A stretch of DNA of 64,000 nucleotides from Lachnospiraceae bacterium (GTDB lineage: Bacteria; Bacillota; Clostridia; Lachnospirales; Lachnospiraceae). The DNA is taken from NCBI GenBank assembly GCA_045121095.1, contig JBGVFN010000058.1, positions 646-64,645 of the forward strand. The letters run 5' to 3'. Below are positions 2,027-18,735 of this stretch, piece by piece. Numbering within the stretch: the first letter of the stretch is position 1; the number at the start of each line of letters is the position of its first letter. The position numbers and the translations under genes were made by a program. The notes below the pieces were generated by a model. It saw only the letters and a program-made list of their open reading frames with translations, did no database searches and was not told the DNA's origin.

Positions 2027-2079
2027 TTTTCTTTATAATTTTATAATAAAGTACCTTACTTACGGAGAATCTTATTTTT

Positions 2080-4446: not shown

Positions 4447-4530
4447 TAAAAGTGCAGTGCCCCTGTAAAGACTAAAACTGTATCAAACACGCTCTAGGCT
4501 GGAGGACAAAAAAGTACGGCATAAACACGT

Positions 4531-5132: not shown

Positions 5133-5672
5133 CTATTTAAAAAATGCACAGGATACGTACGCCAGCGTGTTCGGTCCATAGTAATAAGTCAGTTCATTTG
5201 CCTTACATACCTCGCTGACGAACATGCCATATGCCTCCATGGAAGAGGTCTTTTTCATGGGAAAACGGCAGGGCTCATCGGGATAACTGCACTTTTTACA
5301 AACGGAACAGACCCCTCCCAGAACCAGACAATCGGGGTGAAGTGCCCTTGCTTTATCTACAAATTCTGCCACATGTTTTTTGTGTTCTACCTCAATTTCC
5401 ATCATACTTTCAAAGTCCATGGAGTCCTCCAGCACACCCTGTGTCTGCAACAAAATTCCATATGAATACTCCTGCAGCTCTGCCCAGCATTCTTCCAGTG
5501 TTCCACAGGCAGGCGGGCAGCTCCAGCTGGTGTCATACGCGTGACATTTGTTTTTTGCACAGGCATCACGCACCTCAGGATGCAGAATGATCGTTTCCAT
5601 AGCCAGTGGCGCCATCCCTGTAAATCCGCTTTCTTTTGCTTTTTCCATTAGTAAATTCAAATCATTTGCCAT
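5133..5672 (-). CDS. DUF2284-type Cys-rich metal-binding protein
   Basis: 179 aa with a CPPACGTLEEC-type Cys cluster and further conserved Cys. This family is commonly linked to corrinoid methyltransferase loci. Confidence 0.6.
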   Translation of the reverse strand: MANDLNLLMEKAKESGFTGMAPLAMETIILHPEVRDACAKNKCHAYDTSWSCPPACGTLEECWAELQEYSYGILLQTQGVLEDSMDFESMMEIEVEHKKHVAEFVDKARALHPDCLVLGGVCSVCKKCSYPDEPCRFPMKKTSSMEAYGMFVSEVCKANELTYYYGPNTLAYVSCAFFK

Positions 5673-5718
5673 TTTTTAGTTCTCCTTTATACCTTAATCT
5701 GTCCTACTCCTGCTAACG

Positions 5719-5803
5719 CAGCAGTTCAGCCTTGCCGGACTGCCTTGAATAAATTCAGCAGGTATTCATAATTTCTTTCAGAAATTATTCATTTGGCTAA
5801 ATA
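5719..5803. repeat. REP-like element (GTTCAGC family), degenerate copy
   Basis: gcagttcagccttgccggactgccttgaataaattcagcaggtattcataatttctttcagaaattattcatttggctaaatag. About 85% identical to 59211..59300. Its end supplies the TAG stop of the RACo gene. Confidence 0.8.
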
Positions 5804-7602
5804 GTTTCCGGAAACTCCATCATATCCACAAAAGTATCCTGGAAATCTGGATGTGTTGCCAGTTCCAGGAATTCACAATTTTCAGAAATCCTCTGGCAGC
5901 GTTTGTATTCTTCAAAATTCAAAGCAGCAATTTTTGCACCTTCACCTGCTGCATTTCCAATGGGTACGATCCGTTTTTCCAGCTCACCGGGTATCATACC
6001 GATACCGCAGGCGCTGTGAGGTGCCATATAGTTGCCAAATGCTCCGGCAATCATAACCTTTTTAATGTCTCCGATTTCCACGCCCAGAGTGTCCGCCATC
6101 AGAGCCACACCTGCTGCCATGGCACTTTTGGCCAGCTGCACCTCTCGAATGTCTTTCTGACTCAGATAAACCGGCTGTCCATTTCCACTTTCGGAAGCAT
6201 CTGCCAGTAAAAATGCCTTCATACCGGATTCCAGTCTTATGATCTGAGACGCACACGCCAGCGCTTCTTCTGTTTCCAGCTCATCCTCATCCACCATGCG
6301 GCCCATTTCGTCCATAATACCGGTTTCCAACAGAAAAGTTACAATATCCATCAGGCCGGAACCACAGATTCCTACAGGCTTTCCACCACCAATCACACTG
6401 CACACCAGCTTGCCGTCTTCCCATTTTACATGGTCAATGGCCCCTTTTGCGCCGCGCATACCACAGGAAATCTTAGCGCCCTCAAAAGCAGGGCCAGCTG
6501 CTGTGGAACAGGCAATATAACGGTCTTTATTTCCCATAACCATCTCACCGTTGGTACCAATATCAATGACAAGAGATAATTCTTCCAATGTATCAAATTC
6601 TGTTGCCAGCAGCACACCAATGGTATCTGCACCCACAAATCCGGCAATATTGGGCAGCAGCATCACCTTTCCCTGAGGGAAAATCTGCATTTCCACATCG
6701 GAAGCATTTAACATCAGTCCCTCACTAATGGTAGGATTATACGGTGCATGCACCAGCGCTTTAGGAGAAACACCAGCAAACAAATGGTGCATACAGGTAT
6801 TTCCAACCACAGAAATCATATAAACTGATTCCCTGGAAATACCGGCCTTTTTCACTGCCTTTTCAATCAGTTCATTTAAAGCCTCATGGACCAGACCGCT
6901 TAATTTATCCACACCCTCTGAAATAGCATAATTACTGCGCTCAATAACATCCGCTCCATACTGAGACTGGGGATTTAACATGCTGGCAACCGCAGCTTCT
7001 TCTCCCGTGGCAATATTCAAAAGATATCCAACAATTGTTGTAGTACCAATGTCAAATGCCATAACATAAACCGGGTCATCCGCGGGCCGCAGATCCAGGA
7101 TCTCATTACCGCAAAGAACCACATTCAGGCTGTATCCGTTGTCATTTAAAATCTGATACAGACTGGAAACCAGCTTCATATTGGCAGGAATTGCCGCTTC
7201 TTCCAGTCCTGCCGCCTCTGCAACCGCCATTTTCAGACGTTTCCAGTCTGACAGATTACCGCCCAGCTCACATTTGGGCACGGTCACATTCACACTGCGG
7301 ATTGCAGAAGCAATTTTCATTTTCCGCTGTACGCCCTCCAGTAAAATAGAATGGCCGCCTCCCGACTGCAGATTTACGGTCATGGAGCCAGTTACTTTTG
7401 TGGCACATGCCTTCTGCACACCTGCAGGCACACCTTCTCCACACTCTGTAATATTGACCAGACATTTGCCGCAGGTTCCTTTACCGCCACAGGGTGCATC
7501 AGGATGCAGTCCCGCCTGAATCTGTGCCTCCAGCAGATTGGTTCCTTCTTCTACCAGAATTTCCACATCCTGAGGCAAAAATCTCACTTTGTATTTACTC
7601 AT
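5797..7602 (-). CDS. Corrinoid activation/regeneration protein (RACo-like: N-terminal 2Fe-2S ferredoxin plus ASKHA ATPase domain)
   Basis: ORF 5797..7668 trimmed to MSKYKVRF (GGAGAAAAAGG RBS). CGGKGTCGKC plant-type ferredoxin motif, then a large ASKHA-like domain. Confidence 0.8.
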   Translation of the reverse strand: MSKYKVRFLPQDVEILVEEGTNLLEAQIQAGLHPDAPCGGKGTCGKCLVNITECGEGVPAGVQKACATKVTGSMTVNLQSGGGHSILLEGVQRKMKIASAIRSVNVTVPKCELGGNLSDWKRLKMAVAEAAGLEEAAIPANMKLVSSLYQILNDNGYSLNVVLCGNEILDLRPADDPVYVMAFDIGTTTIVGYLLNIATGEEAAVASMLNPQSQYGADVIERSNYAISEGVDKLSGLVHEALNELIEKAVKKAGISRESVYMISVVGNTCMHHLFAGVSPKALVHAPYNPTISEGLMLNASDVEMQIFPQGKVMLLPNIAGFVGADTIGVLLATEFDTLEELSLVIDIGTNGEMVMGNKDRYIACSTAAGPAFEGAKISCGMRGAKGAIDHVKWEDGKLVCSVIGGGKPVGICGSGLMDIVTFLLETGIMDEMGRMVDEDELETEEALACASQIIRLESGMKAFLLADASESGNGQPVYLSQKDIREVQLAKSAMAAGVALMADTLGVEIGDIKKVMIAGAFGNYMAPHSACGIGMIPGELEKRIVPIGNAAGEGAKIAALNFEEYKRCQRISENCEFLELATHPDFQDTFVDMMEFPETI

Positions 7603-9187
7603 CCTTTTTCTCCTTTCTCTCCAGCAATTTATAGGACAAAAGAATATGAAGCAGTTCATCCGGATCATTCATTTTCACAGAAATCAGACTCTCAATCCGC
7701 TCCATCCTTCTAATAAAAGTTGTCCGATGTATGTATAGTTTCTGCGCCGCCTCCGACGCATTAAATTGATGCATAATGTAATAGTACAACGTCTTTACAA
7801 ACTCCGTTTCATACTCTTCATCATATGCCTGCAGCTTCTGCAGACCTTCATGGGCCAGCTGTTCCGGTGAAAACAGCGTGGTCGTCTGATTCATCATATA
7901 ATCCAGCGTATATTCCCTGAATGTATACACCCATCTGTAGGAATCCTTTTTATTGCCAATCTCCAGAGCAATATCTGCCTGACGCCGGTAATTACTAAGC
8001 AAAGTAAAATCATGAAAACGGTTACTGATACCCGCTTTACAGCCAAAATCACGGATGAGATATGTTACATTGCTGTAAAAATCTTCTTTTGTGCGGATTT
8101 TCCTCTCCCGGGTATAATTAATGATCCAGATAATTTCCCGATCCGTACGGAAAGTACAGGAGTATTCAAACATCCGCTCCAGCTGCTGGCACAGATAAGG
8201 AGCTCCCTGTTCAAACTCCCGGGCACCAAAAATCTGGAGTACGATCAGCTGGTATTCATCATTGCGATGCCAGTTATACATACTAAGAGCCTGAAAATCC
8301 ACCTCAAAATCCTTGCGTCTGGGATGGAACAGGTATTTTTTGAACAGATGATGCAGGACATCATCCTGATTTTCTGCTGGATAACGACGCAGATTATTCA
8401 AATACAGATTTTCCACATATTTTACGAAACTGGAAAACAGCTGATGAATACCGGAATGCACATGATGTTCCGGAATCCTCATAAGAATTCTGGCAGAATA
8501 TTCCCCGGAAAACCGCATATTATAGCAAAGCAGATTATTTTCAGCTGGCCTGGGCGGATAAACAAAAACTGTTTTTTCCTCTTCTGCATTCAGATAATCA
8601 TCATTCTGAAGCAATTCTTTAATATCCTGCTGACTCATTTGATGATCTACCATACGATTCCGCATCTCCGGAAAGTACTGAAAATAATCTTCTGTACAGC
8701 CCAACATCACAAAATTCCTGTCAAATACAGCCAAAGGAAGTCCGATGACTTTTCTCCCTTCGCTCAACAGATCCTGCATCTGAATCTGCTCCTGCTCGCA
8801 GCTTTCCTGCAGCTGTGCCTCCCACATATGAAGAGCACAAAACAGATCTACCAGTTCTTCCAGCAGATCTTCCTCGAATTCCACATCACAGATATAAAGA
8901 ACATCCAGTACCTTTTTCTTCCCCTCCATGAGTGTTCTCCAGTATTCATTTTGCTCCCTGGTTCCTTTACCCCATGCAACAAAAGCACATTCCGTCAGTT
9001 TGATTAAAGGGTGGGCTGTCAGCTCCCCCAGCCGCTCCACAGGAATGCTGTACAACTGCCGTCTTTCCACCTGCCCCCGATACCGTTTTACCGACACCAA
9101 AGGCGCATCAAAATACGCATCCTGATTTTCTTTCATCCGATGTTTTTGCGAAAGCAAATACGCAATTTCGCTGAATGTAATATTCAT
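7595..9187 (-). CDS. PucR-family transcriptional regulator
   Basis: 530 aa with a C-terminal PucR-type HTH (LYIHRTTFIRRMERIE). Its stop overlaps the RACo start by 8 nt. Confidence 0.7.
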   Translation of the reverse strand: MNITFSEIAYLLSQKHRMKENQDAYFDAPLVSVKRYRGQVERRQLYSIPVERLGELTAHPLIKLTECAFVAWGKGTREQNEYWRTLMEGKKKVLDVLYICDVEFEEDLLEELVDLFCALHMWEAQLQESCEQEQIQMQDLLSEGRKVIGLPLAVFDRNFVMLGCTEDYFQYFPEMRNRMVDHQMSQQDIKELLQNDDYLNAEEEKTVFVYPPRPAENNLLCYNMRFSGEYSARILMRIPEHHVHSGIHQLFSSFVKYVENLYLNNLRRYPAENQDDVLHHLFKKYLFHPRRKDFEVDFQALSMYNWHRNDEYQLIVLQIFGAREFEQGAPYLCQQLERMFEYSCTFRTDREIIWIINYTRERKIRTKEDFYSNVTYLIRDFGCKAGISNRFHDFTLLSNYRRQADIALEIGNKKDSYRWVYTFREYTLDYMMNQTTTLFSPEQLAHEGLQKLQAYDEEYETEFVKTLYYYIMHQFNASEAAQKLYIHRTTFIRRMERIESLISVKMNDPDELLHILLSYKLLERKEKKDE

Positions 9188-9375
9188 TTTCCCAACTCCT
9201 CAAATTATATCGGCATTTTTTACAGTTTTTTTGAAATTTCAGCCCCGCAAACAGCATTTTTGTATTTTTCATAGTACCACAGACCTAAATATTTGTAAAA
9301 TGTTTTGTTCGCATTCAAAAACATGCGCGCTACATTTTGTAGCTTAACTTTGCAAAAACAGCAACATTATAAGAA

Positions 9376-9404
9376 TTTACGAATTCCTCTTCCCTGCGTA
9401 TAAT
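9376..9404 (+). promoter_or_regulatory. Putative sigma-A promoter of the MT-II/corrinoid protein operon
   Basis: TTTACG, 17 nt spacer, TATAAT, about 80 nt upstream of the 9487 start. Confidence 0.4.
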
Positions 9405-9486
9405 GAAACCACAATCACAGTTCAAAGGGGATTGCGAAACATAAAAAGATATAAAAAGAGGTTTTCAAAAAGGAGGATTTCAGCAA

Positions 9487-10296
9487 ATGATCATTATTGG
9501 TGAGAAAATCAATGGTTCCATTCCGTCTATGGGCAAAGCAATCGCAGAAAGAAACGAAGAGTACATCAAAGAAATCGCAAGAAAACAGGATGAAGCTGGC
9601 GCTACATATATCGACGTTTGTGCTTCTGTAGCAGAAGACGTTGAGGTAGAAACCATGAAATGGCTGATCGACCTGGTACAGAGCGTAAGTGATCTGCCCA
9701 TCGCAGTAGACAGCCCCAGTGCAGAAGTAATCGCTGAAGCTTACAAATTCTGCAACAAACCTGGTATCCTGAACTCCGTATCCGGTGAAGGCAACAAGAT
9801 GGACGTTCTTTTCCCTATCATGAAAGAAAATCCTGAATGGGAATGTGTTGCTCTGTTAAGTGATGATACTGGTATTCCGCAGTCCGCAGAAGACCGCTTA
9901 AAAGTATTCGATAAGATCATGGCAAAAGCGAAAGAGTACGATATTGCTCCCAGCCGTCTGCACATCGATCCCCTGATCGAAATGCTGTGCACTTCCGAAG
10001 ATGGTATCTCCATGGTTATTGAAGTAATGACCACGATCAAAGAACAGTATCCCGATATCCATATTACCGGTGCTGTATCCAACATTTCTTTCAACCTGCC
10101 CGTTCGTAAGATCCTGAATCAGGCATTTACCGTTCTGGCTATGAACGCTGGTCTGGACAGCGCGATCTTTGATCCGTTAAACAGAGACCTGATGGGTATG
10201 ATCTACGCAACAGAAGCTATGCTGGGTCTGGATGACTACTGCATGGAATACATCGGCGCTTACAGAGAAGGCCTGATCGGACCTGTTCAGCAGTAA
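9487..10296 (+). CDS. Methyltetrahydrofolate:corrinoid methyltransferase (pterin-binding, MT-II type)
   Basis: 269 aa. Starts MIIIGEKINGS... as pterin-binding/AcsE/MtrH-like TIM-barrel proteins do. AGGAGGA RBS. Confidence 0.8.
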   Translation: MIIIGEKINGSIPSMGKAIAERNEEYIKEIARKQDEAGATYIDVCASVAEDVEVETMKWLIDLVQSVSDLPIAVDSPSAEVIAEAYKFCNKPGILNSVSGEGNKMDVLFPIMKENPEWECVALLSDDTGIPQSAEDRLKVFDKIMAKAKEYDIAPSRLHIDPLIEMLCTSEDGISMVIEVMTTIKEQYPDIHITGAVSNISFNLPVRKILNQAFTVLAMNAGLDSAIFDPLNRDLMGMIYATEAMLGLDDYCMEYIGAYREGLIGPVQQ

Positions 10297-10565
10297 TCTG
10301 CACTTGCGTTCTTTAATGATTTAGATTATTATAATTATTATATTTTTATCAAATTGATTCTTTTTCGGAAATGTTTCTCTGCATTAGAAACATTTCCGGT
10401 AGAATATATAGCAGGAATATTACCTGTTCCTGTCGCAGCGCAACGTTTTCCGCTGCATCCATGTCGGTGTGAGGAGCCGGCAGAAAGCTATTATAACCAC
10501 AGGTTTTCGGAAGTGAGGAGCCGTAACCTGCGCAATGAACATCATTTTTTAGGAGGAATATTATT

Positions 10566-11198
10566 ATGTCAAAGATCGAAGAATTAGCAGCAGCTGTCAC
10601 AAAAGGTAAAGCAAAACTCGTTCCCAACCTGGTTAAAGATTGCTTAGCAGAAGGTGTTGACCCCGTTGAAATCCTGAACAAAGGTATGATCGGCGCTATG
10701 GATATCGTTGGTGAAAAATTCAAAAACAACGAAATTTTCGTTCCTGAAATGCTGGTTGCAGCTCGTGCTATGAAGAAAGGTGTTGAAGTTCTGAAACCCT
10801 CTCTGGCTGGTGGAGACAACATATCTCTTGGTAAATATGTAATCGGTACTGTAGCTGGTGACCTTCATGATATCGGTAAAAACCTGGTTGCTATGATGAT
10901 TGAATCTTCAGGTTTCGAAGTAATCGACCTGGGCGTTGACGTTCCCAAGGAAAAATTCGTAGAAGCAGTTAAGAACGATCCCGAAGTTAAAATCGTTGGT
11001 CTGTCCGCTCTGTTAACAACTACTATGCCCGCTATGAAAGACACTGTTGAAGCTCTGATCGAAGCTGGATGCAAGAGCCAGGTTAAGATCATGGTTGGTG
11101 GTGCTCCTATCACTCAGGAATTCGCTGATGAAATCGGCGCTGACTGCTACACCACAGATGCAGCTTCCGCAGCTCAGGCAGCAAAGACTTTAGTTTAA
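10566..11198 (+). CDS. Corrinoid (cobalamin-binding) protein
   Basis: 210 aa: helical cap plus Rossmann B12-binding domain with DxHxxG (GDLHDIGKN). AGGAGGA RBS. Confidence 0.85.
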   Translation: MSKIEELAAAVTKGKAKLVPNLVKDCLAEGVDPVEILNKGMIGAMDIVGEKFKNNEIFVPEMLVAARAMKKGVEVLKPSLAGGDNISLGKYVIGTVAGDLHDIGKNLVAMMIESSGFEVIDLGVDVPKEKFVEAVKNDPEVKIVGLSALLTTTMPAMKDTVEALIEAGCKSQVKIMVGGAPITQEFADEIGADCYTTDAASAAQAAKTLV

Positions 11199-11397
11199 TC
11201 TTTTATCATCAACAATATTCAGTCACGACTGAATTATCACAAATTTAACAACTACGTTATACAGATATTAAGATACACCCCTCGTAATCATTCATTATTT
11301 TGAAAGCTTTGACTTTCGTCCTGAACACCTTAATGACCGATTGCATGAATCTGTTAGCGTTCAATTTTTACTGAGTCCAAAAATATAATTATCCTTA

Positions 11398-11437
11398 GCA
11401 GGCCGACAGTGTTTCATGTGAAACACTGTCGGCCTGC
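11398..11437. terminator. 40-bp hairpin between convergent genes carrying a 15/16 parS core
   Basis: gcaggccgacagTGTTTCATGTGAAACActgtcggcctgc. Core at 11410..11425. Confidence 0.7.
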
Positions 11438-11528
11438 GTTATGAGTTCTGTTCTAATCATTTCGCTTTATCAGCTCTGATTTTTTCACCTTATGCGTTCT
11501 GATTTTACATCATCGGCCCTGTTTTTTA

Positions 11529-12029
11529 CTACCTTACCGCACCATTTCCACTGGCACCGCTTCCGTTCACACCACTTCCATTCGCATCGCTTCCGTTGCG
11601 TACATTGCTGTCATTGGCCGCATTGTCTTCCGTGGTTGTAGTTGTTCGATTTCGCTCTGTACCATTCGTACCACTATTAGTACCCTCATGCACCGTGCCA
11701 TTTTCTGTGCCGTTTTCCACACCATCATACACAGTCTGGCTTTCTGTACCATGATTTAAAGTTCCATTTTTCTCCGTTTCTGTACCATTTTTATGGTTCA
11801 GGTTTTCGTTATTATCCAGCGTACCATTATGATTTCTATCCTCTTCATATACCCCGTCATGCATGGTACCAGTTTCACCTGTCAGATCATCCCAGCCTCT
11901 TTCCGCAGCCGATTCCGTATCCTCCACAGCACGGCATGCAGACAAAGAAAACATCAGGCAAAGCAGCATCAGCATAACACCCATGGTCTTTGCTGTACTT
12001 CTGCTTTTTTCATTGCGTTTACCTTTCAT
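11529..12029 (-). CDS. N/G/T-rich low-complexity lipoprotein
   Basis: ORF 11529..12035 (TTG) trimmed to ATG 12029. Lipobox LSAC. The mature part is dominated by NGT/NGS triplets. Confidence 0.5.
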   Translation of the reverse strand: MKGKRNEKSRSTAKTMGVMLMLLCLMFSLSACRAVEDTESAAERGWDDLTGETGTMHDGVYEEDRNHNGTLDNNENLNHKNGTETEKNGTLNHGTESQTVYDGVENGTENGTVHEGTNSGTNGTERNRTTTTTEDNAANDSNVRNGSDANGSGVNGSGASGNGAVR

Positions 12030-12165
12030 CGTCAATACTTCCCTTCTTTTTCAGTGTAAAACAAGACAACAATTCACCAGGAGCGGATGCTCTGCCGAAT
12101 TGTTACAAAAAATAAAGCGGAAATCCCGATACAGGATTTCCACTTTAGCATGTCCGAATTATTCT

Positions 12166-12290
12166 GTTTTATCCAGGCTTTCGTTTATCCAAGTTTTTCT
12201 TGTTCAAAGTTTTTCTTATCCAAACTTCTTCTTATCCAAGTCTTTCTTGTTCAAAGTTTTTCTTATTCAAACTTCTTCTTATCCAAGTTT
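12166..12290. repeat. 15-bp tandem array (about 8 units, 45-bp higher order) of DnaA-box-like TTATCCA motifs
   Basis: Units include TTATCCAGG, TTATCCAAG, TTGTTCAAA, TTATCCAAA, TTATCCAAG, TTGTTCAAA, TTATTCAAA, TTATCCAAG. The last unit supplies the stop of CDS 12279..12908. Confidence 0.85.
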
Positions 12291-12908
12291 TATTTTTACC
12301 ATTTCTTTGATCACTTCTGCACATTTTTCCATGCCCAGTCTTCCACTGTTCAAAATCAGATCATATGCTTTGGGATCTTTCCATTCCTGTCCGCGGGAAT
12401 AGTATTTGTAATAATCAGAGCGATATTTGTCCGTTTTTAAAATCAGACGCTCTGCTTCTGCATCACCTACGCAAAGGCGTTCCTTTACATTTTCAATGCA
12501 ATAATCCATATCTGCTTCCACAAATACACTGACCACATTAGGATAATCTTTTAATGCAAGATTTCCGCATTTACCGATGATGATGCAGGATTCTGTTTCT
12601 GCCAGATGGCGGATGATTTCTGCCTGAATATTGAACAGGTTATCATCCGAAACAAATCTCTTATCCGTAGGCTTTGCAATACGATTAATATTGGGGAATC
12701 CTGCCAGCATTTTCTGAATATAAGAACCTCTCAGCTTTTCATCTACCTGTGCAAATAACTGTTCATTAATACCGCTGTAATCAGATGCCATACGCAGCAG
12801 CTGATCTTCGTAACAGGGAATTCCCAGTTCTTCGCTCAGATTAATACCGATGGTTTTACCGCCGCTTCCGAAGCCGCGTGAAATAGTAATTACATAGGGT
12901 TTATCCAT
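12279..12908 (-). CDS. Cytidylate kinase-like family P-loop protein (paralog 1)
   Basis: 209 aa. [16 protein letters not shown]-loop. About 60% identical by eye to the CDS at 32460..33098. Confidence 0.65.
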   Translation of the reverse strand: MDKPYVITISRGFGSGGKTIGINLSEELGIPCYEDQLLRMASDYSGINEQLFAQVDEKLRGSYIQKMLAGFPNINRIAKPTDKRFVSDDNLFNIQAEIIRHLAETESCIIIGKCGNLALKDYPNVVSVFVEADMDYCIENVKERLCVGDAEAERLILKTDKYRSDYYKYYSRGQEWKDPKAYDLILNSGRLGMEKCAEVIKEMVKIKLG

Positions 12909-12963
12909 AATCTACCTCCCGAAATTAAACTCTTTCTTCTGGAAATAGTATATCACATATCTA

Positions 12964-13755
12964 TCACAGGGGTAACTTCAGTTCAAAATATTTTTCCATA
13001 ATTTCGTAAAGTTCATGTTTATCATGAATTTCTGTTTTGGTGACTGTGCCATTTTCAATAATTGTGAGTGTATTTCCCATAACGCCAATACTTCCATCAG
13101 CGGTTCTTCGATTGAGGAATGGAATCTGAGTAAAAATAGAGTCCGGGCAGCAGCCGCAATATTCGTTGTTGGGGATGAAAGTTACGTTGTGCTGAGGCAT
13201 GGGGTAAAACTGCAGTACATTTTCTATTTCACCGCTGGAAGTGGTCCGGCTGACCGTCCACCAGTATTCATCTGTTTTTTTTACGTGATAGGTTTCTCCA
13301 TGCATGGTCCGTGAAAATCCATCTTCTATCAGCAAAAGTCCTGCAGGCATGGGGCCGCCGAATCCCACATCATAGAAGTATTTTTTACCATCCAGCTCCA
13401 CCACATTTACCCGGTGCAGAACCGGAGGTACTTCCGTCTTATTACGCACGATCCGACCCATACATCCATACGCATGATATCCCAGATCTTTCAAGAGCTG
13501 TGTGAACAAAGCGTTCAATTCAAAGCAATAACCCCCTCTGTGGTTGGTAACAATCTTTTCAAACACAGCAGGAATTTCCAGAGAAACCGGTTTATGAAAT
13601 TCATATGAATCCATATTTTCAAATACGACTTTCTGCTGGTGGATGTAGATCAAATTGTCCAAATATTCGAAATCCGCCTGATCAGGTGCATCCACCTGCA
13701 GACGGTTCAAATAAGCACCAATATCGGGGATTGGTGAATATAACTTGTCATGCAT
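12964..13755 (-). CDS. Arylamine N-acetyltransferase
   Basis: 263 aa. RGGYCFELN active-site Cys block typical of the NAT family. Confidence 0.75.
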   Translation of the reverse strand: MHDKLYSPIPDIGAYLNRLQVDAPDQADFEYLDNLIYIHQQKVVFENMDSYEFHKPVSLEIPAVFEKIVTNHRGGYCFELNALFTQLLKDLGYHAYGCMGRIVRNKTEVPPVLHRVNVVELDGKKYFYDVGFGGPMPAGLLLIEDGFSRTMHGETYHVKKTDEYWWTVSRTTSSGEIENVLQFYPMPQHNVTFIPNNEYCGCCPDSIFTQIPFLNRRTADGSIGVMGNTLTIIENGTVTKTEIHDKHELYEIMEKYFELKLPL

Positions 13756-14107
13756 AAAAAGACCTCCTTATTTTTTGGGTATTTTGTTCAATTTACACTC
13801 TATTATCAGATTTTTTTTAGTATATCGGATACTTTTTCTTTTCGCAACAAAAATTTTATCTACGCACGTTTTTTGACATTTTGACACTTCCGGGTGTACA
13901 AAATGTCGAATTCGAAACCAGAAGATATGAACTTTGTGCGGATTTACCCTCAATCCATTTTACTTTATACTAAACGCAAGATTAATCGTGACACGTGAAG
14001 ATTGTACAATCAACAAAGTGAAAAGCAACTATTTCGTCTTTGCTGAACCGGCCTGCATAGATTCAGTGAATACGAACAGTTTTCAAAAAAGAAGGAGAGT
14101 TTTTCAT

Positions 14108-15499
14108 ATGAGCGACGAAAAGAAAACCAAAAAAGGCTTAAGCAAAGCCCTCAAGATGTTTTATGGTGTTGGTGACTGTAGTTTTACACTGATGACAAAT
14201 GTTGAAAGTTATTTCTTTAACTTCTTCCTGACCAACCTGGCACAGTTTGGTCTTGGTACCGTATCTTTCATCACTACCACCGCAAGTGTAATTGATGCTT
14301 GCCTGTCCTGGATCTACGGTGCGATCCTGAATAGTATCAAACCAAAAAAATGGGGCCGCTATCGTTCCTGGCTGATCTTATTACCCTGGCTGGTGCCTTT
14401 CTTATATGCCTTCCAGTTTATCAAACTGAATGATGGCCCTCTTGGCGTAGCTGTTATTATCATCGCTGCTGTTGCCAGCCATATTGTATGGAATTTCCCT
14501 TACGTTGCTAACGTATCCATGATTGCTGTAGCCGGCAAAACACCGGAAGATCGATCACAGCTGGCTTCCACAAGAGCTGCATGGGCAAACTTCTCCAAAG
14601 TTATCTTCTCTTACGTAGCAACTCCTCTGGCAGCAATTTTTGCCGGAATTATCGGTGAAACCAACCAGTACGGCGCAGTTGCATTCGTACTAGGCTGTGT
14701 TATGGCAGTTATGTACTATGTACACTTCAGAATGTTCGACGGCTACGAAGAAATAGAAGTTGCAACTGAAACCACCGAGAAAAAAGATAAAACAAAAACA
14801 AGTCCTGTTGACCTTCTGAGATCTTTAGTTCAGAACCCTCCTCTGATCGCGTTAATGATCGCCGATCTTGCAAAATTCATGTTCAACTTTGTTTGCGCAG
14901 GTGTCGCTGTATACTATTTCACCTACGTAGCAAAAGACGCCGGCATGTTGGCTAATTACCTTGTAATCACCAATATCCTGTGTGTAGTTGGTTCTTATCT
15001 GTCCAAGAATCTGGCTAAGAAACTGTCAACTCGTGTTACCGCAATCGTTACGTTCCTGGCTATGGCCGTTGTACTGATTGCTGCAAACTTTACATATAGC
15101 AATGTTACTCTGGTAGTAATTTTAATGTCCGCTGCTCAGTTTGGTTATGGTATTGCTTATGCATGTACTCCCGCTCTGTACGCAGACACCATCGTTTACG
15201 CAGAATGGAAAACCGGCAAAAACGCTACTGGCTGGATCAGCGGTCTGCAGAACGTTCCTCTGAAGGTTGGTGTTATGACAAGAGGTATCATCATCTCCGC
15301 ATGTCTGGCAATGGCAAACTTCAGCGCTGACATCGATCCCGCTGCTGCATCTGTTGAACTGCAGAAAGGTATCTGTATGGCATTTATGGTGATCCCTGCA
15401 TGCGCTCTGATCGTTGCTGCATTATCACTGTTAATCGGTTTCCGCCTTACCAAAGAAAAAGTAGAACAATATCAGGCAGAAATCGCTGCACGCGGCTAA
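14108..15499 (+). CDS. MFS transporter, glycoside-pentoside-hexuronide (GPH) cation symporter family
   Basis: ORF 13934..15499 trimmed to MSDEKKTKKGLS (AAGGAGAG RBS). 12-TM pattern. N-terminal FYGVGD motif typical of GPH. Confidence 0.7.
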   Translation: MSDEKKTKKGLSKALKMFYGVGDCSFTLMTNVESYFFNFFLTNLAQFGLGTVSFITTTASVIDACLSWIYGAILNSIKPKKWGRYRSWLILLPWLVPFLYAFQFIKLNDGPLGVAVIIIAAVASHIVWNFPYVANVSMIAVAGKTPEDRSQLASTRAAWANFSKVIFSYVATPLAAIFAGIIGETNQYGAVAFVLGCVMAVMYYVHFRMFDGYEEIEVATETTEKKDKTKTSPVDLLRSLVQNPPLIALMIADLAKFMFNFVCAGVAVYYFTYVAKDAGMLANYLVITNILCVVGSYLSKNLAKKLSTRVTAIVTFLAMAVVLIAANFTYSNVTLVVILMSAAQFGYGIAYACTPALYADTIVYAEWKTGKNATGWISGLQNVPLKVGVMTRGIIISACLAMANFSADIDPAAASVELQKGICMAFMVIPACALIVAALSLLIGFRLTKEKVEQYQAEIAARG

Positions 15500-15509
15500 T
15501 TATTATCAG

Positions 15510-16379
15510 GAGGGACAATAAAGAAATCCCAGATCATTGGTGCATTTTTGTCCATACTGATTCTAACCGGCTGCTGGCACTCCTGATCAGATTATTTGGC
15601 GCAAAAACACAGAATATACTTTTCGCTTTTATGTTATGTGCTGCCCTGCTGTCCTCCATCATGTCCAATGTGGCAACAACCGCAGTACTGGTGTCTGTCG
15701 TATTAAATTTCCTGAATGTATACCACGATCAAACAGAACGCCGCCACAGTGGAAAAGCTTTTATGATCGGCCTTCCCATTGCAAGTATGATCGGTGGAAT
15801 GATGACACCGGCAGGAAGCCCTTTAAATATGCTGGGAATCGATTTTCTGGAATCAGCTGATATCCGATTTTCCTTTATTCAGTGGATGGGAATCGGCATT
15901 CCAGTAGCACTTATATCACTTTTAGCTGCATGGAAAATCACCATGGCAGTATTCAAACCCGCAGAAATCGATCCAAACTGCATAAAAAACTATATTCAGA
16001 CTCTGGATATCCCTGACAAATTAACCTTTAAAGAAAAATACGTGGGAATTGTGATCTCAGCCCTGTTTATCCTTTGGGTATTATCATCCTGGTTCCCCGT
16101 ACTCAACATCACCGTAGTCGGTATGATCGGATTCGCTTTCCTGTTCATACCCGGAGTCGAAATTTTTACCTGGAAAGATTATTGCCGCTGCGTAAGCTGG
16201 ACATCTGCGCATCCTGCTGCTTCCTGCTGCCGCTGGATACAGTACCGCTGCTGACCTACTCAACCGGTTATTATAAAATGATGGATATGCCCAAAGTATC
16301 CGCATTCATACAGGTTGTCATTCTGACCTGCATGGCCATCTGGGTACCGATCGCACTGAGGCTATTTGGATTTATGTGA
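15510..16379 (+). pseudogene. Decayed DASS/SLC13-type anion permease
   Basis: Homologous pieces lie in three frames: KKSQIIGAFLSILILTGC; LFGAKTQNILFAF...GGMMTPAGSPLNMLG; LLPLDTVPLLTYSTGYY...RLFGFM. N-terminally truncated, with an internal loss. Confidence 0.6.
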
Positions 16380-16439
16380 TGTTATACTGCACAGACAACT
16401 TTAAAACTAGACTTAACGCTTAAAACAGGAGGACTACAT

Positions 16440-17430
16440 ATGTTAACTAAAAAACAGAATTTAATTGAAACCATGAAAGGCGGAAATCCCGACCGTTTTG
16501 TAAACCAGTATGAAGCATTTGCCATGATCGTTGGAAGTCCCTTCGGTGAACACAACCCCGCACCCAAACGCGGTGAATTAAATGTAATCAACGCATGGGG
16601 AATTAAAAAATCATGGCCTGAAAATGTACCCGGTGCATTCCCTGTACATAACGCAGAAAGCATCGTATGCAAAGATATCACCAACTGGAGAGAATATGTA
16701 AAAGCTCCCAACGTAGTATATCCTGCAGAAGCATGGAAACCCTACATCGAAAAAGCCGCTGCTGTAGACAGAAACGAACAGTACGTAACCGCATTTATCG
16801 CTCCCGGTATCTTCGAACAGTGCCATTACCTGCTGGAAATCCAGGAATGTCTCATTAATTTCTACGAAGAACCCGAAGCAAATGCACGAACTCATCGATT
16901 ATATCACCGACTGGGAACTGGCATACGCAGAAGAACTCTGCAAATATCTGAAACCCGATGCTATTTTCCATCACGATGACTGGGGCAGCCAGATTTCAAC
17001 CTTCCTTTCTCCCGAAATGTTTGAAGAATTCTTCCTGCCTGCATACAAAAAAGTTTATGGATATTACAAAGAACACGGCGTAGAGCTGATCATCCATCAC
17101 TCCGACTCCTACGCAGCAACTCTGGTTCCCTACATGATCGAAATGGGAATTGATATCTGGCAGGGCGTTATGAACTCCAACAACATCCCTGAACTGATCA
17201 AAAAATACGGCGGACAGATCACATTCATGGGCGGCGTTGACAGCGCAGCCGTAGATTACGAAGGATGGACCAAAGAAGTGGTTCACAAAGAAGTAGAACG
17301 CGCATGCCGCGAATGCGGAAAACATTACTTCATCCCCAATGCATCCCAGGGACTTCCCATGAGTACATTCCCCGGTGTATATGAAGCATTATCCGAAGAA
17401 ATCGACAACATGAGCAAAGTTATGTTCTAG
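16440..17430 (+). pseudogene. URO-D family (MtaA/CmuA-like) corrinoid methyltransferase MT-I, single-base frameshift
   Basis: ORFs 16440..16979 and 16882..17430 join collinearly with the paralog at 17446..18501. EEPEA|MHELIDYITDW aligns with EEPEELTAFYDKLVDW. There is an extra A in the run at 16879..16881. Confidence 0.7.
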
Positions 17431-17445
17431 AAAGGATAACTAACA

Positions 17446-18501
17446 ATGAGCACTTTCAATAACGATGAACTGAAAATTATTGGCGAATACAGCATGCCCG
17501 GCATTTACGGTGCTCCGGATTTAATCGTACCCAAATATAATTATCCCATCACTCCCAAGGAAAACATGATCCGTATGCTGGAAGGCAAAATGCCTCTGTG
17601 GGTACCCAATCAGGATCTGGACAATAACGCCATTCAGCCTCTGGTAATGCCCGATGCAAAAGCAAGAAACTTCGGCGGAACCGACTGGTTCGGCATTGAA
17701 TGGGTATACGAACCCAATACAAAAGCAGCCATGGTAAAACCCGGATTCAAACGCCTTTCTGACATCACCAACTGGAGAGAAGAAATCGTATGGCCCGACC
17801 TCTCCGCCATTGACTGGCAAAAAGACTACGAAGAAAACTACAAAGACAGAATTGCAGAAGACCGTTTCAGCTATTTTGTCATCGTAAACGGGCTGTTTGA
17901 AAGAACTGCCGATCTGACCTCCTTCGAAGACGCATTCTGCGCACTTCTGGAAGAACCCGAAGAACTCACCGCTTTCTATGACAAGCTGGTAGACTGGCAT
18001 ATCGAATTAATCAAAATTGCCAAAGAAGTTTATCACACGGACATGATTCTGTTCCACGATGACATGGGAACCCAGATCAGCACATTCTTCTCACCTGATC
18101 TGTACGAAGAACTGTTCCTGCCTCAGTACAAAAAAATCACTCAGGCAGCACACGACATGGGCATGTATATCACACTTCACTCCTGTGGATGCATTTCCAC
18201 TCTCATGCCTCTGATCATCGAAGCCGGTTTCGACGCATGGGAAGGCCAGGACAGCGCCAACGATAAAAAAGCCATCATGGATGAATACGGCAAAGACCTG
18301 GCACAGTGCACTCTGTACATGATCCCCGAAACCATGAGTGACGAAGAAGCCATCGCACACATCCATAAAACAGTAGATGAACTGGCCAAAACCGGACGTT
18401 TTGCATGCCGTCTGAGAGACCCCAAAGGCAATCGTTCCGTTAATCTGGCAGAAGAATTATACCGTTACAGCCGTATGAAATATATGGAAATGGCGGAATA
18501 A
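17446..18501 (+). CDS. URO-D family (MtaA/CmuA-like) substrate:corrinoid methyltransferase MT-I
   Basis: 351 aa. FHDDMGTQ...FFSP...LHSCG blocks typical of uroporphyrinogen-decarboxylase-fold methyltransferases. Confidence 0.7.
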   Translation: MSTFNNDELKIIGEYSMPGIYGAPDLIVPKYNYPITPKENMIRMLEGKMPLWVPNQDLDNNAIQPLVMPDAKARNFGGTDWFGIEWVYEPNTKAAMVKPGFKRLSDITNWREEIVWPDLSAIDWQKDYEENYKDRIAEDRFSYFVIVNGLFERTADLTSFEDAFCALLEEPEELTAFYDKLVDWHIELIKIAKEVYHTDMILFHDDMGTQISTFFSPDLYEELFLPQYKKITQAAHDMGMYITLHSCGCISTLMPLIIEAGFDAWEGQDSANDKKAIMDEYGKDLAQCTLYMIPETMSDEEAIAHIHKTVDELAKTGRFACRLRDPKGNRSVNLAEELYRYSRMKYMEMAE

Positions 18502-18570: not shown

Positions 18571-18735
18571 CTAGAGCGTGTTTGAAAAAGGCTTTATACA
18601 GGATGTGCATCCCATTTTGAGATAAATTTCTCTCAAATGAAGGGGCGTAGCAGGCTGCGCTGACTGAATCTGAGAAAAATTTAGCCAAAACTGGGGTGTG
18701 CAGACTGCGTGAATGTTTTTTCAAACACGCTCTAG
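18571..18735. mobile_element. 165-bp MITE-like element, copy 1
   Basis: Terminal inverted repeats ctagagcgtgtttgaaaaa ... tttttcaaacacgctctag. About 92% identical to 31816..31980. No coding capacity (ORF 18521..18724 judged spurious). Confidence 0.8.

What the first reader, a model, noticed from the sequence alone, without database searches (positions are those of the whole stretch)
5133..18501. Split corrinoid-dependent methyltransferase system of unknown substrate
All parts of an O-demethylase-type or methylotrophic three-component system are present.
- Activase RACo: 5797..7602.
- MT-II, pterin-binding: 9487..10296.
- Corrinoid protein: 10566..11198.
- Two URO-D-fold MT-I paralogs: 16440..17430 (frameshifted) and 17446..18501.
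- Also a PucR regulator, DUF2284 and a GPH-family symporter directly upstream of the MT-I genes.

The cluster is interrupted by three unrelated minus-strand genes: a lipoprotein, the cmk-like gene and NAT. MT-I specificity cannot be read from sequence. The GPH (glycoside-type) transporter suggests a methylated sugar or glycosylated methoxy-aromatic rather than the usual free phenyl methyl ethers.
Basis: partly seen in the sequence, partly recalled or inferred. Interest (0 to 1): 0.65.

Follow-up and report, generated by a model that had tools for sequence, protein, structure and literature searches.

The report
Corrinoid demethylase system with acetyltransferase partner
A gut Lachnospiraceae bacterium carries a complete vitamin-B12-dependent demethylation system whose substrate-specific half is a widely shared cassette (transporter, methyltransferases and an arylamine N-acetyltransferase) that is partly broken in this strain. 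The acetyltransferase partner points to methoxylated aromatic amines, not sugars, as the unknown substrate.

Summary
Three corrections matter.

1. The arylamine N-acetyltransferase (NAT, 12964-13755) is not an unrelated interrupter. It is a conserved partner of the MFS_2 transporter and the MT-I genes, both in MT-I-centred genome loci and in NAT-centred metagenome loci.
2. The cassette is decayed in this strain.
 - MT-Ia has a real +1 A frameshift at 16880.
 - An overlooked DASS transporter gene (15518-16379) carries two 265-bp deletions.
 - The cassette's own PucR regulator is deleted.
 - NAT, the MFS_2 transporter and MT-Ib are intact.
3. The "glycoside" inference is weak. The transporter scores below the GPH family cut-off, MelB sugar and cation ligands are replaced, and no glycosidase recurs in about 90 related loci.

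MT-Ib belongs to a tightly conserved orthogroup with an MtaA-like His-x-Cys...Cys site. MT-Ia/c proteins carry His-x-Asp instead.

Best reading: a shared hub (PucR, RACo, DUF2284, MT-II, corrinoid protein) serves a horizontally spread, NAT-linked demethylase cassette. The substrate is probably a methoxylated arylamine or aminophenol precursor, but this is inferred only. I found no published substrate assignment or NAT link.

The parts
5133..5672 (-). DUF2284 Cys-rich metal-binding protein; hub accessory, possibly an electron-transfer partner of RACo (inferred)
   Evidence: Pfam PF10050, 150 bits. Cys clusters are visible in the translation. It sits next to RACo in 8-9 related loci.
5797..7602 (-). 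RACo-type ATP-dependent reductive activase of the corrinoid protein
   Evidence: Fer2, RACo_linker, Raco_middle and RACo_C_ter domains. AcsV-like, 403 bits. A 2Fe-2S Cys motif is present.
7595..9187 (-). PucR-family regulator of the hub; overlaps the RACo start by 8 bp
   Evidence: HTH_30 domain, 54 bits. The divergent arrangement PucR | MT-II-CoP recurs in Blautia loci L043, L044, L047, L050 and L051.
9376..9404 (+). Promoter-like site upstream of MT-II (TTTACG, 17 nt spacer, TATAAT)
   Evidence: Consensus scan, 10 of 12 matches. This is a pattern match only.
9487..10296 (+). MT-II: methyl-corrinoid:tetrahydrofolate methyltransferase (pterin-binding TIM barrel)
   Evidence: PF00809. NF005719, 343 bits against a cut-off of 259.
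10566..11198 (+). Corrinoid (B12) carrier protein
   Evidence: B12-binding_2 and B12-binding domains. TIGR02370, 208 bits. DLHDIG (DxHxxG) motif.
11529..12035 (-). Low-complexity lipoprotein; lineage-specific and probably not part of the system
   Evidence: LSAC lipobox. No family hits. Found only in the window lineage (L005-L008).
12279..12908 (-). Cytidylate_kin2-family protein, probably co-transcribed with NAT; role unknown
   Evidence: PF13189, 164 bits. A strong terminator lies at 12147-12113(-), after this gene. The family is seen again near MT-I modules in L169 and, at 27% identity, in L068. It is not generally conserved.
12964..13755 (-). Arylamine N-acetyltransferase (NAT); conserved cassette partner, divergent from the transporter/MT-I operon
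   Evidence: PF00797, 167 bits. Best solved relatives are Mesorhizobium, Pseudomonas and Salmonella NATs. The Cys77-His114-Asp129 triad is invariant in 14 cassette NATs.
13935..13947 (+). Conserved motif TGTGCGGATTTAC, overlapping a -35-like TTTACC with TATACT 17 nt downstream; candidate activator site and promoter of the transporter/MT-I operon
   Evidence: Invariant in the NAT-transporter intergenic regions of the window plus nine related loci, which are otherwise diverged. It is the only exact copy in the window.
14108..15499 (+). MFS_2 (distant GPH-like) transporter; presumed substrate importer
   Evidence: PF13347, 185 bits. Below the TIGR00792 cut-off. An ortholog (64-81% identity) lies next to the MT-Ib ortholog in 43 of 53 species, and in 0 of 27 paralog loci.
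15518..16379 (+). DASS/CitMHS anion symporter pseudogene with two 265-bp deletions that shift the frame
   Evidence: Comparison with the intact 463-aa alleles in L006 and L009. The intact protein passes TIGR00785. The fragment gives partial Pfam hits.
16440..17430 (+). MT-Ia: URO-D-fold methyltransferase of the His-x-Asp type, inactivated by a +1 A at 16880
   Evidence: The intact 329-aa allele (99% identity) is seen on 135 contigs. The same break is in L005, L007 and L008.
17446..18501 (+). MT-Ib: intact URO-D/MtaA-fold methyltransferase with conserved His245-x-Cys247...Cys321
   Evidence: PF01208. AF2 model pLDDT 93. Best fold match is MtaA 4AY7/4AY8. The HxC motif aligns to that of MtaA. 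Motif conservation is shown.
18571..18735 (.). 165-bp palindromic repeat element at the site where relatives carry the cassette's own 560-aa PucR regulator
   Evidence: Its terminal repeat occurs 10 times in the window against 0.04 expected.

Best explanation
The region holds two functional blocks of one corrinoid-dependent demethylation pathway.

Block 1 (5133-11198) is a generic methyl-transfer hub.
- The corrinoid protein accepts a methyl group on Co(I).
- MT-II passes that methyl group to tetrahydrofolate.
- RACo, perhaps with the Cys-rich DUF2284 protein, re-reduces inactive Co(II) using ATP.
- A PucR-type regulator controls the block.

Block 2 (12964-18501) is a substrate-specific cassette that has spread among gut Firmicutes and Coriobacteriia.
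- It holds an MFS_2 importer (plus a DASS anion symporter in some genomes).
- It usually holds two URO-D-fold MT-I enzymes of different types: MT-Ib with an MtaA-like His-x-Cys...Cys site, and MT-Ia/c with His-x-Asp.
- It carries its own PucR activator and, in about half of the genomes, an arylamine N-acetyltransferase.

Shown here: the identity and integrity of each part, the synteny, and the decay events.

Inferred:
- The MT-I enzymes take a methyl group from a methoxylated aromatic compound that bears, or yields, an aromatic amine.
- NAT then acetylates the aminophenol-type product to make it less reactive.

In this strain only NAT, the MFS_2 importer and MT-Ib remain intact. MT-Ia, DASS and the local regulator are lost. 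The cassette is therefore reduced to its minimal form and may be deregulated or silent.
For: - **Parts:** all four canonical components were identified with strong family scores and intact motifs.
- **Hub linked to cassette elsewhere:** MT-II, corrinoid protein, RACo or DUF2284 lie within about 10 kb of MT-Ib orthologs in L026, L032, L042-L044, L047, L050, L051, L055 and L056. Many MT-I loci have no corrinoid protein of their own, for example L069 from the species representative, which implies a shared hub.
- **Cassette, MT-Ib-centred (53 species):** MFS_2 ortholog in 43, PucR in 37, a second MT-I in 33, NAT in 24, DASS in 15. In 27 paralog loci the MFS_2 count is 0 and the NAT count is 2. Fisher tests give 2e-13 and 8e-4.
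- **Cassette, NAT-centred:** 15 of 15 long contigs with a close NAT relative carry MT-I genes, against 3 of 26 with distant NATs.
- **Operon:** L171 has MFS_2-NAT-MT-I as one tight operon.
- **NAT is functional-looking:** the catalytic triad is invariant.
- **MT-Ib:** MtaA-like fold and aligned HxC motif; His245 and Cys247 are conserved in 56 of 56 orthologs and Cys321 in 55 of 56.
- **Decay:**
- **Regulation:** a conserved operator or promoter motif is retained.
Against: - There are no expression or biochemical data. All functional links rest on synteny and homology.
- NAT is absent from about half of the MT-Ib loci, so it is not obligatory.
- NAT identity among cassettes is only 36-56% while MT-Ib is 59-83% identical in its alignment, so NAT may be a looser accessory.
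- Some NAT-centred loci are near-duplicates (L089, L092, L093, L098), which inflates the statistics.
- With its own regulator gone, the cassette may not be expressed in this strain.
- The arylamine substrate is an inference from the known chemistry of the NAT family, not from any observation here.
Confidence: 0.6

Rival explanations
1. Ordinary phenyl-methyl-ether O-demethylase. The cassette demethylates common dietary methoxy-aromatics such as lignans, ferulate-, vanillate- or syringate-type compounds or flavones. NAT would be a loosely associated detoxification gene with no role in the pathway.
For: Carriers include known O-demethylating acetogens such as Blautia producta (PMC12915777 and PMC9544265, read). 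NAT is missing from about half of the ortholog loci. Two MT-I types in one operon fits di-methoxy substrates.
Against: NAT association is specific to this orthogroup (24/53 against 2/27). Seen from the NAT side it is near-exclusive for the close NAT clade (15/15). It includes an in-operon arrangement.
Confidence: 0.25
2. One reading: the substrate is a methylated sugar or a glycosylated methoxy-aromatic taken up by a glycoside-type GPH symporter.
For: The transporter is in Pfam MFS_2. Its best named relatives are GPH members: MelB, YagG and the glucuronide transporter.
Against: It scores 167 bits against the TIGR00792 cut-off of 231. It matches MelB at only 47 bits, with Asp19->Thr, Asp124->Asn, Asn58->Leu and Asp59->Ser in the alignment. 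No glycoside hydrolase, sulfatase or esterase family recurs in about 90 loci.
Confidence: 0.08
3. Thiol or thioether chemistry. MT-Ib, with its MtaA-like His-x-Cys...Cys zinc site, would handle a methylthio compound or methylate a thiol acceptor (an MT2-like role). The His-x-Asp partner would be the true MT-I.
For: The HxC motif aligns to that of MtaA and the best fold match is MtaA. This triad activates thiols in MtaA, MtbA and MtsA (established knowledge). Kountz and Balskus propose methyl-sulfur or methyl-selenium roles for other bacterial MtaA-like clusters (PMC10418091).
Against: MT-Ib is very far from the coenzyme M methyltransferases (32 bits against a cut-off of 235; 13% identity). A THF-type MT-II is present, unlike in the mlp clusters. 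Several cassettes have MT-Ib as the only URO-D gene (L002-L004, L067, L018), so it must be able to act as an MT-I. Zinc also occurs in veratrol and vanillate O-demethylases (PMC13222342).
Confidence: 0.1
4. Unlinked neighbours or a relic. The hub serves other MT-I genes elsewhere in the genome. In this strain the cassette is a non-functional remnant on its way to loss.
For: Three of six cassette genes are destroyed or deleted, including the local regulator. The two blocks are separated by lineage-specific genes and a strong terminator. The species representative has other MT-I loci (L069).
Against: NAT, the transporter and MT-Ib are intact, and the broken configuration recurs in three independent assemblies. 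The promoter motif is intact. The remaining trio equals the minimal cassette seen in Blautia sp. An249-type genomes, apart from the regulator.
Confidence: 0.2

Closest known systems
Acetobacterium dehalogenans vanillate/veratrol O-demethylases (Odm/Vdm) and Desulfitobacterium hafniense O-demethylase: four-component MT-I / corrinoid protein / MT-II / activating enzyme systems
   Same: The component set and presumed chemistry are the same. A URO-D-superfamily MT-I methylates the Co(I) corrinoid protein, a pterin-binding MT-II passes the methyl to THF, and a RACo-type activase repairs Co(II). Some of these MT-Is contain zinc (PMC13222342).
   Different: Orthology to OdmB or VdmB could not be tested. 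Here the genes lie in two blocks with PucR regulators, MFS_2 and DASS transporters and an arylamine NAT. None of these is described for those systems in the papers I could read.
Methermicoccus shengliensis MtoABCD and Moorella thermoacetica MtvABC (PMC8630106)
   Same: An operon of two MT-I paralogs, a corrinoid protein, a THF/H4MPT-type MT-II and an activase, with MFS transporters and a regulator nearby.
   Different: MtoB proteins are 47-48 kDa, whereas MT-Ia and MT-Ib here are 329 and 351 aa. No NAT is reported there. The transporter here is MFS_2, not the aromatic-acid:H+ MFS type discussed in that paper.
MtaA, methylcobamide:coenzyme M methyltransferase (PDB 4AY7/4AY8)
   Same: Best structural match to the MT-Ib model (TM 0.62-0.64). 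The LHSCGC motif of MT-Ib aligns with LHICGN of MtaA. A conserved distal Cys321 is present.
   Different: Only 13% identity. MT-Ib scores 32 bits against the MtaA/CmuA family cut-off of 235. The host is a bacterium with a THF-type MT-II, and MT-Ib has a distinct beta-rich N-terminal region of about 140 residues.
Type 1 mlp gene clusters (Kountz and Balskus, PMC10418091)
   Same: Bacterial clusters with several URO-D-family methyltransferase paralogs, a corrinoid protein and a RACE/RACo activase, found in gut anaerobes.
   Different: Mlp proteins are about 30% identical to the coenzyme M methyltransferases, and the clusters lack a THF methyltransferase. Here MT-II is present and the MT-Is are far from those enzymes.
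CdmBCA chloromethane dehalogenase of A. dehalogenans (PMC13222342)
   Same: A URO-D-superfamily MT-I with a corrinoid protein and an MtqA-like MT-II. Homologues are reported in Blautia and Eubacterium.
   Different: CdmB has no zinc and a hydrophobic tunnel for haloalkanes. MT-Ib keeps a His/Cys/Cys site and always sits beside a solute transporter. A PDB sequence-profile search did not link MT-Ib to any chain other than MtaA.
Bacterial and fungal arylamine N-acetyltransferases that detoxify aminophenols and anilines (for example Salmonella NhoA 1E2T, Mesorhizobium NAT1 2BSZ; Streptomyces NatA and Fusarium FDB2, from general knowledge)
   Same: Same fold family and catalytic Cys-His-Asp triad. 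The proposed role, acetylation of a reactive aminophenol, is the known physiological role of several members (general knowledge, not tested here).
   Different: I found no paper that mentions both an arylamine NAT and corrinoids.

Membership tests
Four-component corrinoid-dependent (O-)demethylase system | URO-D/TIM-barrel MT-I | tested here: met
   PF01208 hits for both proteins. AF2 model pLDDT 93, matching MtaA and UroD.
Four-component corrinoid-dependent (O-)demethylase system | Corrinoid carrier protein with a cap domain and DxHxxG B12-binding motif | tested here: met
   B12-binding_2 and B12-binding domains. DLHDIG motif.
Four-component corrinoid-dependent (O-)demethylase system | Pterin-binding MT-II (methyl-corrinoid:THF methyltransferase) | tested here: met
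   NF005719, 343 bits against a cut-off of 259.
Four-component corrinoid-dependent (O-)demethylase system | RACo-type ATP-dependent activating enzyme with a 2Fe-2S domain | tested here: met
   All four RACo domains. Cys motif present.
Four-component corrinoid-dependent (O-)demethylase system | Demethylation of a phenyl methyl ether, with methyl transfer to Co(I) and then to THF | not testable with these tools
   Needs enzyme assays.
Four-component corrinoid-dependent (O-)demethylase system | Orthology of the MT-I to a characterised enzyme (OdmB, VdmB, MtvB, MtoB, Dhaf_4610) | not tested
   Reference sequences were not retrievable. All 240 listed homologues carry only generic names.
Soluble coenzyme M methyltransferases (MtaA/MtbA/MtsA) and mlp type 1 clusters | Family-level sequence membership (TIGR01463 MtaA/CmuA) | tested here: not met
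   MT-Ib 32 bits and MT-Ia 46 bits against a cut-off of 235.
Soluble coenzyme M methyltransferases (MtaA/MtbA/MtsA) and mlp type 1 clusters | His-x-Cys...Cys zinc site | tested here: met
   Met for MT-Ib: His245 and Cys247 in 56 of 56 orthologs, Cys321 in 55 of 56. Not met for MT-Ia/c, which carry His-x-Asp and Pro at the third position.
Soluble coenzyme M methyltransferases (MtaA/MtbA/MtsA) and mlp type 1 clusters | No THF methyltransferase in the cluster (mlp type 1) | tested here: not met
   MT-II is present at 9487-10296. The mlp definition is from PMC10418091.
GPH (glycoside-pentoside-hexuronide:cation symporter, TIGR00792) | Score above the family cut-off | tested here: not met
   167 bits against 231. 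The Pfam MFS_2 superfamily match is met at 185 bits.
GPH (glycoside-pentoside-hexuronide:cation symporter, TIGR00792) | MelB-type sugar ligands (Asp19, Asp124) and cation ligands (Asp55, Asn58, Asp59) | tested here: not met
   The alignment to 4M64 gives Thr, Asn, Asp, Leu and Ser at those positions. It is a low-scoring alignment, so positions are approximate. The residue roles come from general knowledge of MelB structures.
Arylamine N-acetyltransferase (PF00797) | Family HMM match and catalytic Cys-His-Asp triad | tested here: met
   167 bits. GGYCFE Cys, His and DVGFGG Asp align to NAT structures. The triad is invariant in 14 cassette NATs.
Arylamine N-acetyltransferase (PF00797) | Acetyl-CoA-dependent acetylation of an arylamine | not testable with these tools
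   Needs an enzyme assay.

The most novel reading that the evidence does not exclude
The NAT / MFS_2 / MT-Ib / MT-Ic cassette is a dedicated, previously undescribed gut-bacterial pathway. It would import methoxylated aromatic amines, strip their O-methyl groups into the folate pool through a shared corrinoid hub, and N-acetylate the resulting reactive aminophenols. Candidate substrates include anisidine-type compounds, methoxy-anthranilates or -aminobenzoates, and benzoxazinoid-derived 2-amino-5-methoxyphenol or aminophenoxazinones from cereals. The pathway would be a coupled demethylation-plus-acetylation route for dietary and drug arylamines, carried by Blautia, Ruminococcus-like, Eubacterium and Coriobacteriia species in humans and in the other animal guts sampled here (chicken, mouse, rabbit, ruminants).
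Probability: 0.25. Interest if true: 0.7.

Novelty: new variant of a known kind. Interest (0 to 1): 0.5.

Why it matters
Gut bacterial O-demethylation changes the activity of dietary polyphenols, neurotransmitter metabolites and many drugs. Yet a 2026 review still says the responsible methyltransferase genes "remain unresolved".

This locus defines two tightly conserved MT-I orthogroups with a fixed transporter partner and an unexpected arylamine acetyltransferase partner. That narrows the substrate search to a chemically specific class. It also gives a simple mass signature to look for: loss of CH2 plus gain of acetyl.

The locus also illustrates a hub-and-cassette organisation, in which one corrinoid protein / MT-II / activase set serves scattered MT-I modules. 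Finally, it shows natural decay of a cassette within a circulating strain lineage. This matters when gene presence in metagenomes is used to predict activity.

Tried and rejected
- **Phylogenetic placement against OdmB, VdmB, MtvB, MtoB and CdmB:** not possible. The two key papers were not held, and the homology searches returned only unnamed or generic proteins.
- **PDB sequence searches:** single sequences found nothing useful. A profile reached only MtaA at E = 0.01.
- **Gene-level substrate assignment in the literature:** searched in Blautia, Eubacterium and gut O-demethylase papers. No assignment for these orthogroups was found. The glm gene of B. producta could not be matched, because the preprint gives no sequence or locus identifier.
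- **mlp type 1 cluster:** rejected. An MT-II is present here and the MT-Is are not like the coenzyme M methyltransferases.
- **Cobalamin riboswitch or other RNA regulator:** none in the region.
- **Extra conserved enzymes (glycosidase, sulfatase, esterase, reductase):** de novo clustering of neighbourhood ORFs found none. The other recurrent clusters are antisense shadow ORFs.
- **Promoter and terminator scan:** no more sites than in shuffled sequence. Only the terminator at 12147-12113 and two promoter-like sites were used.
- **DmsA-family molybdoenzyme upstream (2080-4446):** considered as a partner and rejected, because it never recurs near the cassette.
- **Benzoxazinoid literature search:** gave nothing relevant.

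Full report
**1. Observation**

- DUF2284, 5133-5672(-).
- RACo activase, 5797-7602(-), with Fer2, linker, middle and ASKHA domains.
- PucR-family regulator, 7595-9187(-).
- Pterin-binding MT-II, 9487-10296(+). It passes NCBIfam NF005719 at 343 bits against a cut-off of 259.
- Corrinoid protein, 10566-11198(+), with a DLHDIG B12-binding motif.
- Lipoprotein with an LSAC lipobox, 11529-12035(-).
- Cytidylate_kin2 protein, 12279-12908(-).
- Arylamine N-acetyltransferase (NAT), 12964-13755(-).
- MFS_2 transporter, whose real start is 14108 (463 aa, good RBS).
- Two URO-D-fold proteins, at 16440-17430 (split) and 17446-18501. They are 29% identical to each other.

Between the transporter and MT-Ia lies the wreck of a DASS/CitMHS anion symporter, at 15518-16379.

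**2. The lesions are real**

The exact MT-Ib protein is indexed in 217 blocks of the public assembly collection.
- Three independent assemblies (L005, L007, L008) show the same split MT-Ia and the same truncated DASS gene as the window.
- L006, and the species-representative genome L009 (an uncultured Lachnospiraceae, 95% MT-Ib identity), carry intact genes of 329 aa and 463 aa.

Alignment to L006 pins down the damage.
- MT-Ia has a single extra A at 16880 (GCAATG becomes GCAAATG).
- The DASS gene has two deletions of exactly 265 bp. Each lies between imperfect 10-bp direct repeats, and each shifts the frame.
- A 560-aa PucR-family regulator follows MT-Ib in L006, in L009 and in most other species. 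In the window it is replaced by about 260 bp that contain a 165-bp palindromic repeat element.

The intact MT-Ia allele (99% identity) is seen on 135 contigs. The window therefore represents a decayed variant circulating alongside an intact one.

**3. What the MT-I proteins are**

*MT-Ib*
- It has 328 homologues at E <= 1e-5. The 120 listed are 59-99% identical and come from Blautia, Ruminococcus-like, Eubacterium, Oscillospiraceae and Coriobacteriia sources. All are named "hypothetical" or "uroporphyrinogen decarboxylase family".
- An AlphaFold model from 16 orthologs is confident (pLDDT 93, pTM 0.91).
- Its best solved-structure matches are MtaA (4AY7/4AY8; TM 0.62-0.64, 13% identity) and then UroD.
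- A profile alignment places MT-Ib LHSCGC on MtaA LHICGN. His245 and Cys247 are conserved in all 56 orthologs and Cys321 in 55 of 56.

*The other URO-D proteins*
- URO-D proteins in the related loci fall into three groups: MT-Ib, a common partner type that I call MT-Ic, and the rarer MT-Ia type found in the window.
- MT-Ia and MT-Ic share His-x-Asp, with Pro at the third position. They are about 40% identical, so the window's MT-Ia is the local equivalent of MT-Ic.

*Relation to the coenzyme M methyltransferases*
- Both window proteins are far from these enzymes: 32 and 46 bits against the TIGR01463 cut-off of 235.

**4. Gene neighbourhood across genomes**

A scan of one genome per GTDB species returned 80 loci. 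I searched them by tblastn with all window proteins.

| Neighbour within 8 kb of MT-Ib | 53 ortholog loci (>=62% identity) | 27 paralog loci (52-59% identity) |
|---|---|---|
| MFS_2 ortholog (64-81% identity) | 43 | 0 |
| PucR paralog | 37 | 9 |
| Second MT-I (Ia/c type) | 33 | 10 |
| NAT | 24 | 2 |
| DASS | 15 | 3 |
| RACo or DUF2284 | 8-9 | 1 (RACo) |

- Fisher tests give 2e-13 for MFS_2 and 8e-4 for NAT.
- The reciprocal test started from NAT, using metagenome contigs. All 15 contigs of at least 7 kb whose NAT is at least 43% identical to the window's carry MT-I genes, nearly always with the transporter. Only 3 of 26 contigs with more distant NATs do (p about 1e-8). Some contigs are near-duplicates, so this overstates independence.
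- One MT-Ia-ortholog locus (L171) has MFS_2-NAT-MT-I as a tight co-directional operon.
- The cassette NATs keep an invariant Cys-His-Asp triad. They resemble bona fide bacterial NATs: 2BSZ, 4NV7, 1W4T and 1E2T.
- De novo clustering of all neighbourhood ORFs found no other recurrent family. In particular there is no glycosidase, sulfatase, esterase or reductase.

NAT is therefore a cassette component and not an interrupter. The lipoprotein is confined to the window's own lineage. The Cytidylate_kin2 gene recurs only sporadically.

**5. Link between the two halves**

- MT-II, corrinoid protein, RACo or DUF2284 lie within about 10 kb of MT-Ib orthologs in Eubacterium aggregans and E. barkeri (L026, L032), in Blautia caecimuris and four Blautia-type MAG loci (L043, L044, L047, L050, L051), in two further assemblies that are not labelled Blautia (L042, L055), and in L056.
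- In several of these the local arrangement matches the window: PucR divergent from MT-II-CoP, with RACo and DUF2284 adjacent.
- Many MT-I loci, including another from the window's species representative (L069), have no corrinoid protein nearby.
- This pattern fits one hub serving several scattered MT-I cassettes. The "split" is then the normal organisation in these bacteria and not a disruption.

**6. The transporter and the glycoside idea**

- The transporter belongs to Pfam MFS_2 but scores below the GPH family cut-off (167 against 231 bits).
- It matches MelB at only 47 bits. At the MelB sugar ligands Asp19 and Asp124 it has Thr and Asn. At the cation ligands Asn58 and Asp59 it has Leu and Ser. 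The residue roles come from general knowledge of MelB structures, and a low-scoring alignment makes the positions approximate.
- With no glycosidase in any neighbourhood, the methylated-sugar or glycoside reading has little support.

**7. Regulation**

- The NAT-transporter intergenic regions of the window and nine related loci are otherwise diverged, yet all share an invariant TGTGCGGATTTAC (window 13935-13947). It overlaps a -35-like TTTACC, with TATACT 17 nt downstream. A conserved TGTACAAAA(T/A)GT block lies upstream.
- This is the only exact copy of the motif in the window. It looks like an activator site abutting the promoter.
- The obvious candidate activator is the cassette's own PucR protein, which this strain has lost. 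Expression here is therefore uncertain.
- No riboswitch was found.

**8. Mechanism proposed**

*Shown:* the parts list, the integrity of each part, the synteny and the decay events.

*Inferred from the established chemistry of these families:*
- The substrate enters through MFS_2, and an anionic form enters through DASS where that gene is intact.
- MT-Ib and MT-Ia/c each transfer a methyl group from the substrate to the Co(I) corrinoid protein. MT-Ib probably uses its zinc site.
- MT-II passes the methyl group to tetrahydrofolate.
- RACo re-reduces Co(II) to Co(I) using ATP.

*Inferred from the NAT partnership:*
- The substrate or product carries an aromatic amine, and NAT acetylates the aminophenol-type product.
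- Candidate substrates are speculative: anisidine-like compounds, methoxy-anthranilates or -aminobenzoates, and cereal benzoxazinoid breakdown products.

**9. Comparison with known systems, and novelty**

- The system has the same architecture as the Odm/Vdm, Mtv and Mto O-demethylases. It also shares the URO-D superfamily MT-I with CdmB, the chloromethane enzyme.
- It is not an mlp type 1 cluster.
- I found no paper that mentions both an arylamine NAT and corrinoids. I found no gene-level substrate assignment for these orthogroups. A July 2026 review states that the O-demethylases of gut bacteria remain unresolved.
- I rate it a new variant of a known kind.
- Interest is moderate. The window's copy is a degraded example, but the cassette it reveals is widespread, unstudied and directly testable.

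Noticed in passing
window 15561-15570 and 16196-16205 (junctions); L006 4141-4405 and 5041-5305: The DASS pseudogene carries two deletions of exactly the same length (265 bp). Each lies between imperfect 10-bp direct repeats (TTCTGATCGG/TTCTAACCGG and GCTGGACATC/GCTGGTCATC). They remove residues 18-106 and 318-406, which are offset by exactly 300 residues. The two deleted segments share no DNA similarity. The equal size is unexplained.
   Followed up: partly
window 18571-18735; terminal repeats also at 442, 4497, 23634, 31816/31980, 32369, 38545 and 46996: A 165-bp palindromic element (68-nt arms, 75% complementary) with terminal repeat CTAGAGCGTGTTTGAAAAA. The repeat occurs 10 times in the window against 0.04 expected. 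It looks like a genome-wide MITE- or REP-like intergenic repeat. One copy sits exactly where the cassette's PucR gene was lost.
   Followed up: partly
window 442-4497: An inverted pair of the same terminal repeat brackets a 525-aa ORF with no family hits (449-2026) and a DmsA/YnfE-family molybdopterin oxidoreductase (2080-4446). The oxidoreductase scores 837 bits against TIGR02166 (cut-off 778), and its first mapped domain (Fe4S4) begins near residue 15, which leaves little room for a signal peptide. GC content is about 0.50 against about 0.40 in the flanks. This may be a mobile or acquired unit.
   Followed up: no
window 30769-31068 (+): A full-length Rfam hit to 5_ureB_sRNA (RF02514; 84.7 bits against a gathering score of 40), which I recall (not checked here) as a Helicobacter family. 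It lies antisense to a 573-aa minus-strand ORF (29498-31219) that I did not annotate and that lies downstream of the urease accessory genes. The hit may simply reflect conserved urease coding sequence.
   Followed up: no
window 12279-12908; L169 15039-15635; L068 about 2919: Cytidylate_kin2 (PF13189) proteins recur sporadically near MT-I modules. In the window the gene is probably co-transcribed with NAT, with a terminator at 12147-12113. Its function is unknown.
   Followed up: partly
window 16382: A 56-bp deletion relative to L006, immediately upstream of the MT-Ia ribosome-binding site. This is one more difference in the decayed allele.
   Followed up: no
window 18800-19708 (-): A 302-aa protein with weak ferritin-like or Mn-catalase-like C-terminal hits, and an N-terminus built of repeats containing 'QNTAEQNTVK'. 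It is conserved next to the cassette only in the window's close relatives (L006, L009).
   Followed up: no
L055 (CAVFGF010000043.1, labelled Alistipes onderdonkii): This contig has the same Firmicutes-type gene order as L042 (Firmicutes bacterium CAG:176). It is probably mis-binned and not evidence for the cassette in Bacteroidota.
   Followed up: no
window 16882: The frameshift creates an in-frame ATG exactly at the break (GCAAATGCAC). The C-terminal half of MT-Ia could in principle be translated on its own. No convincing ribosome-binding site lies upstream.
   Followed up: no
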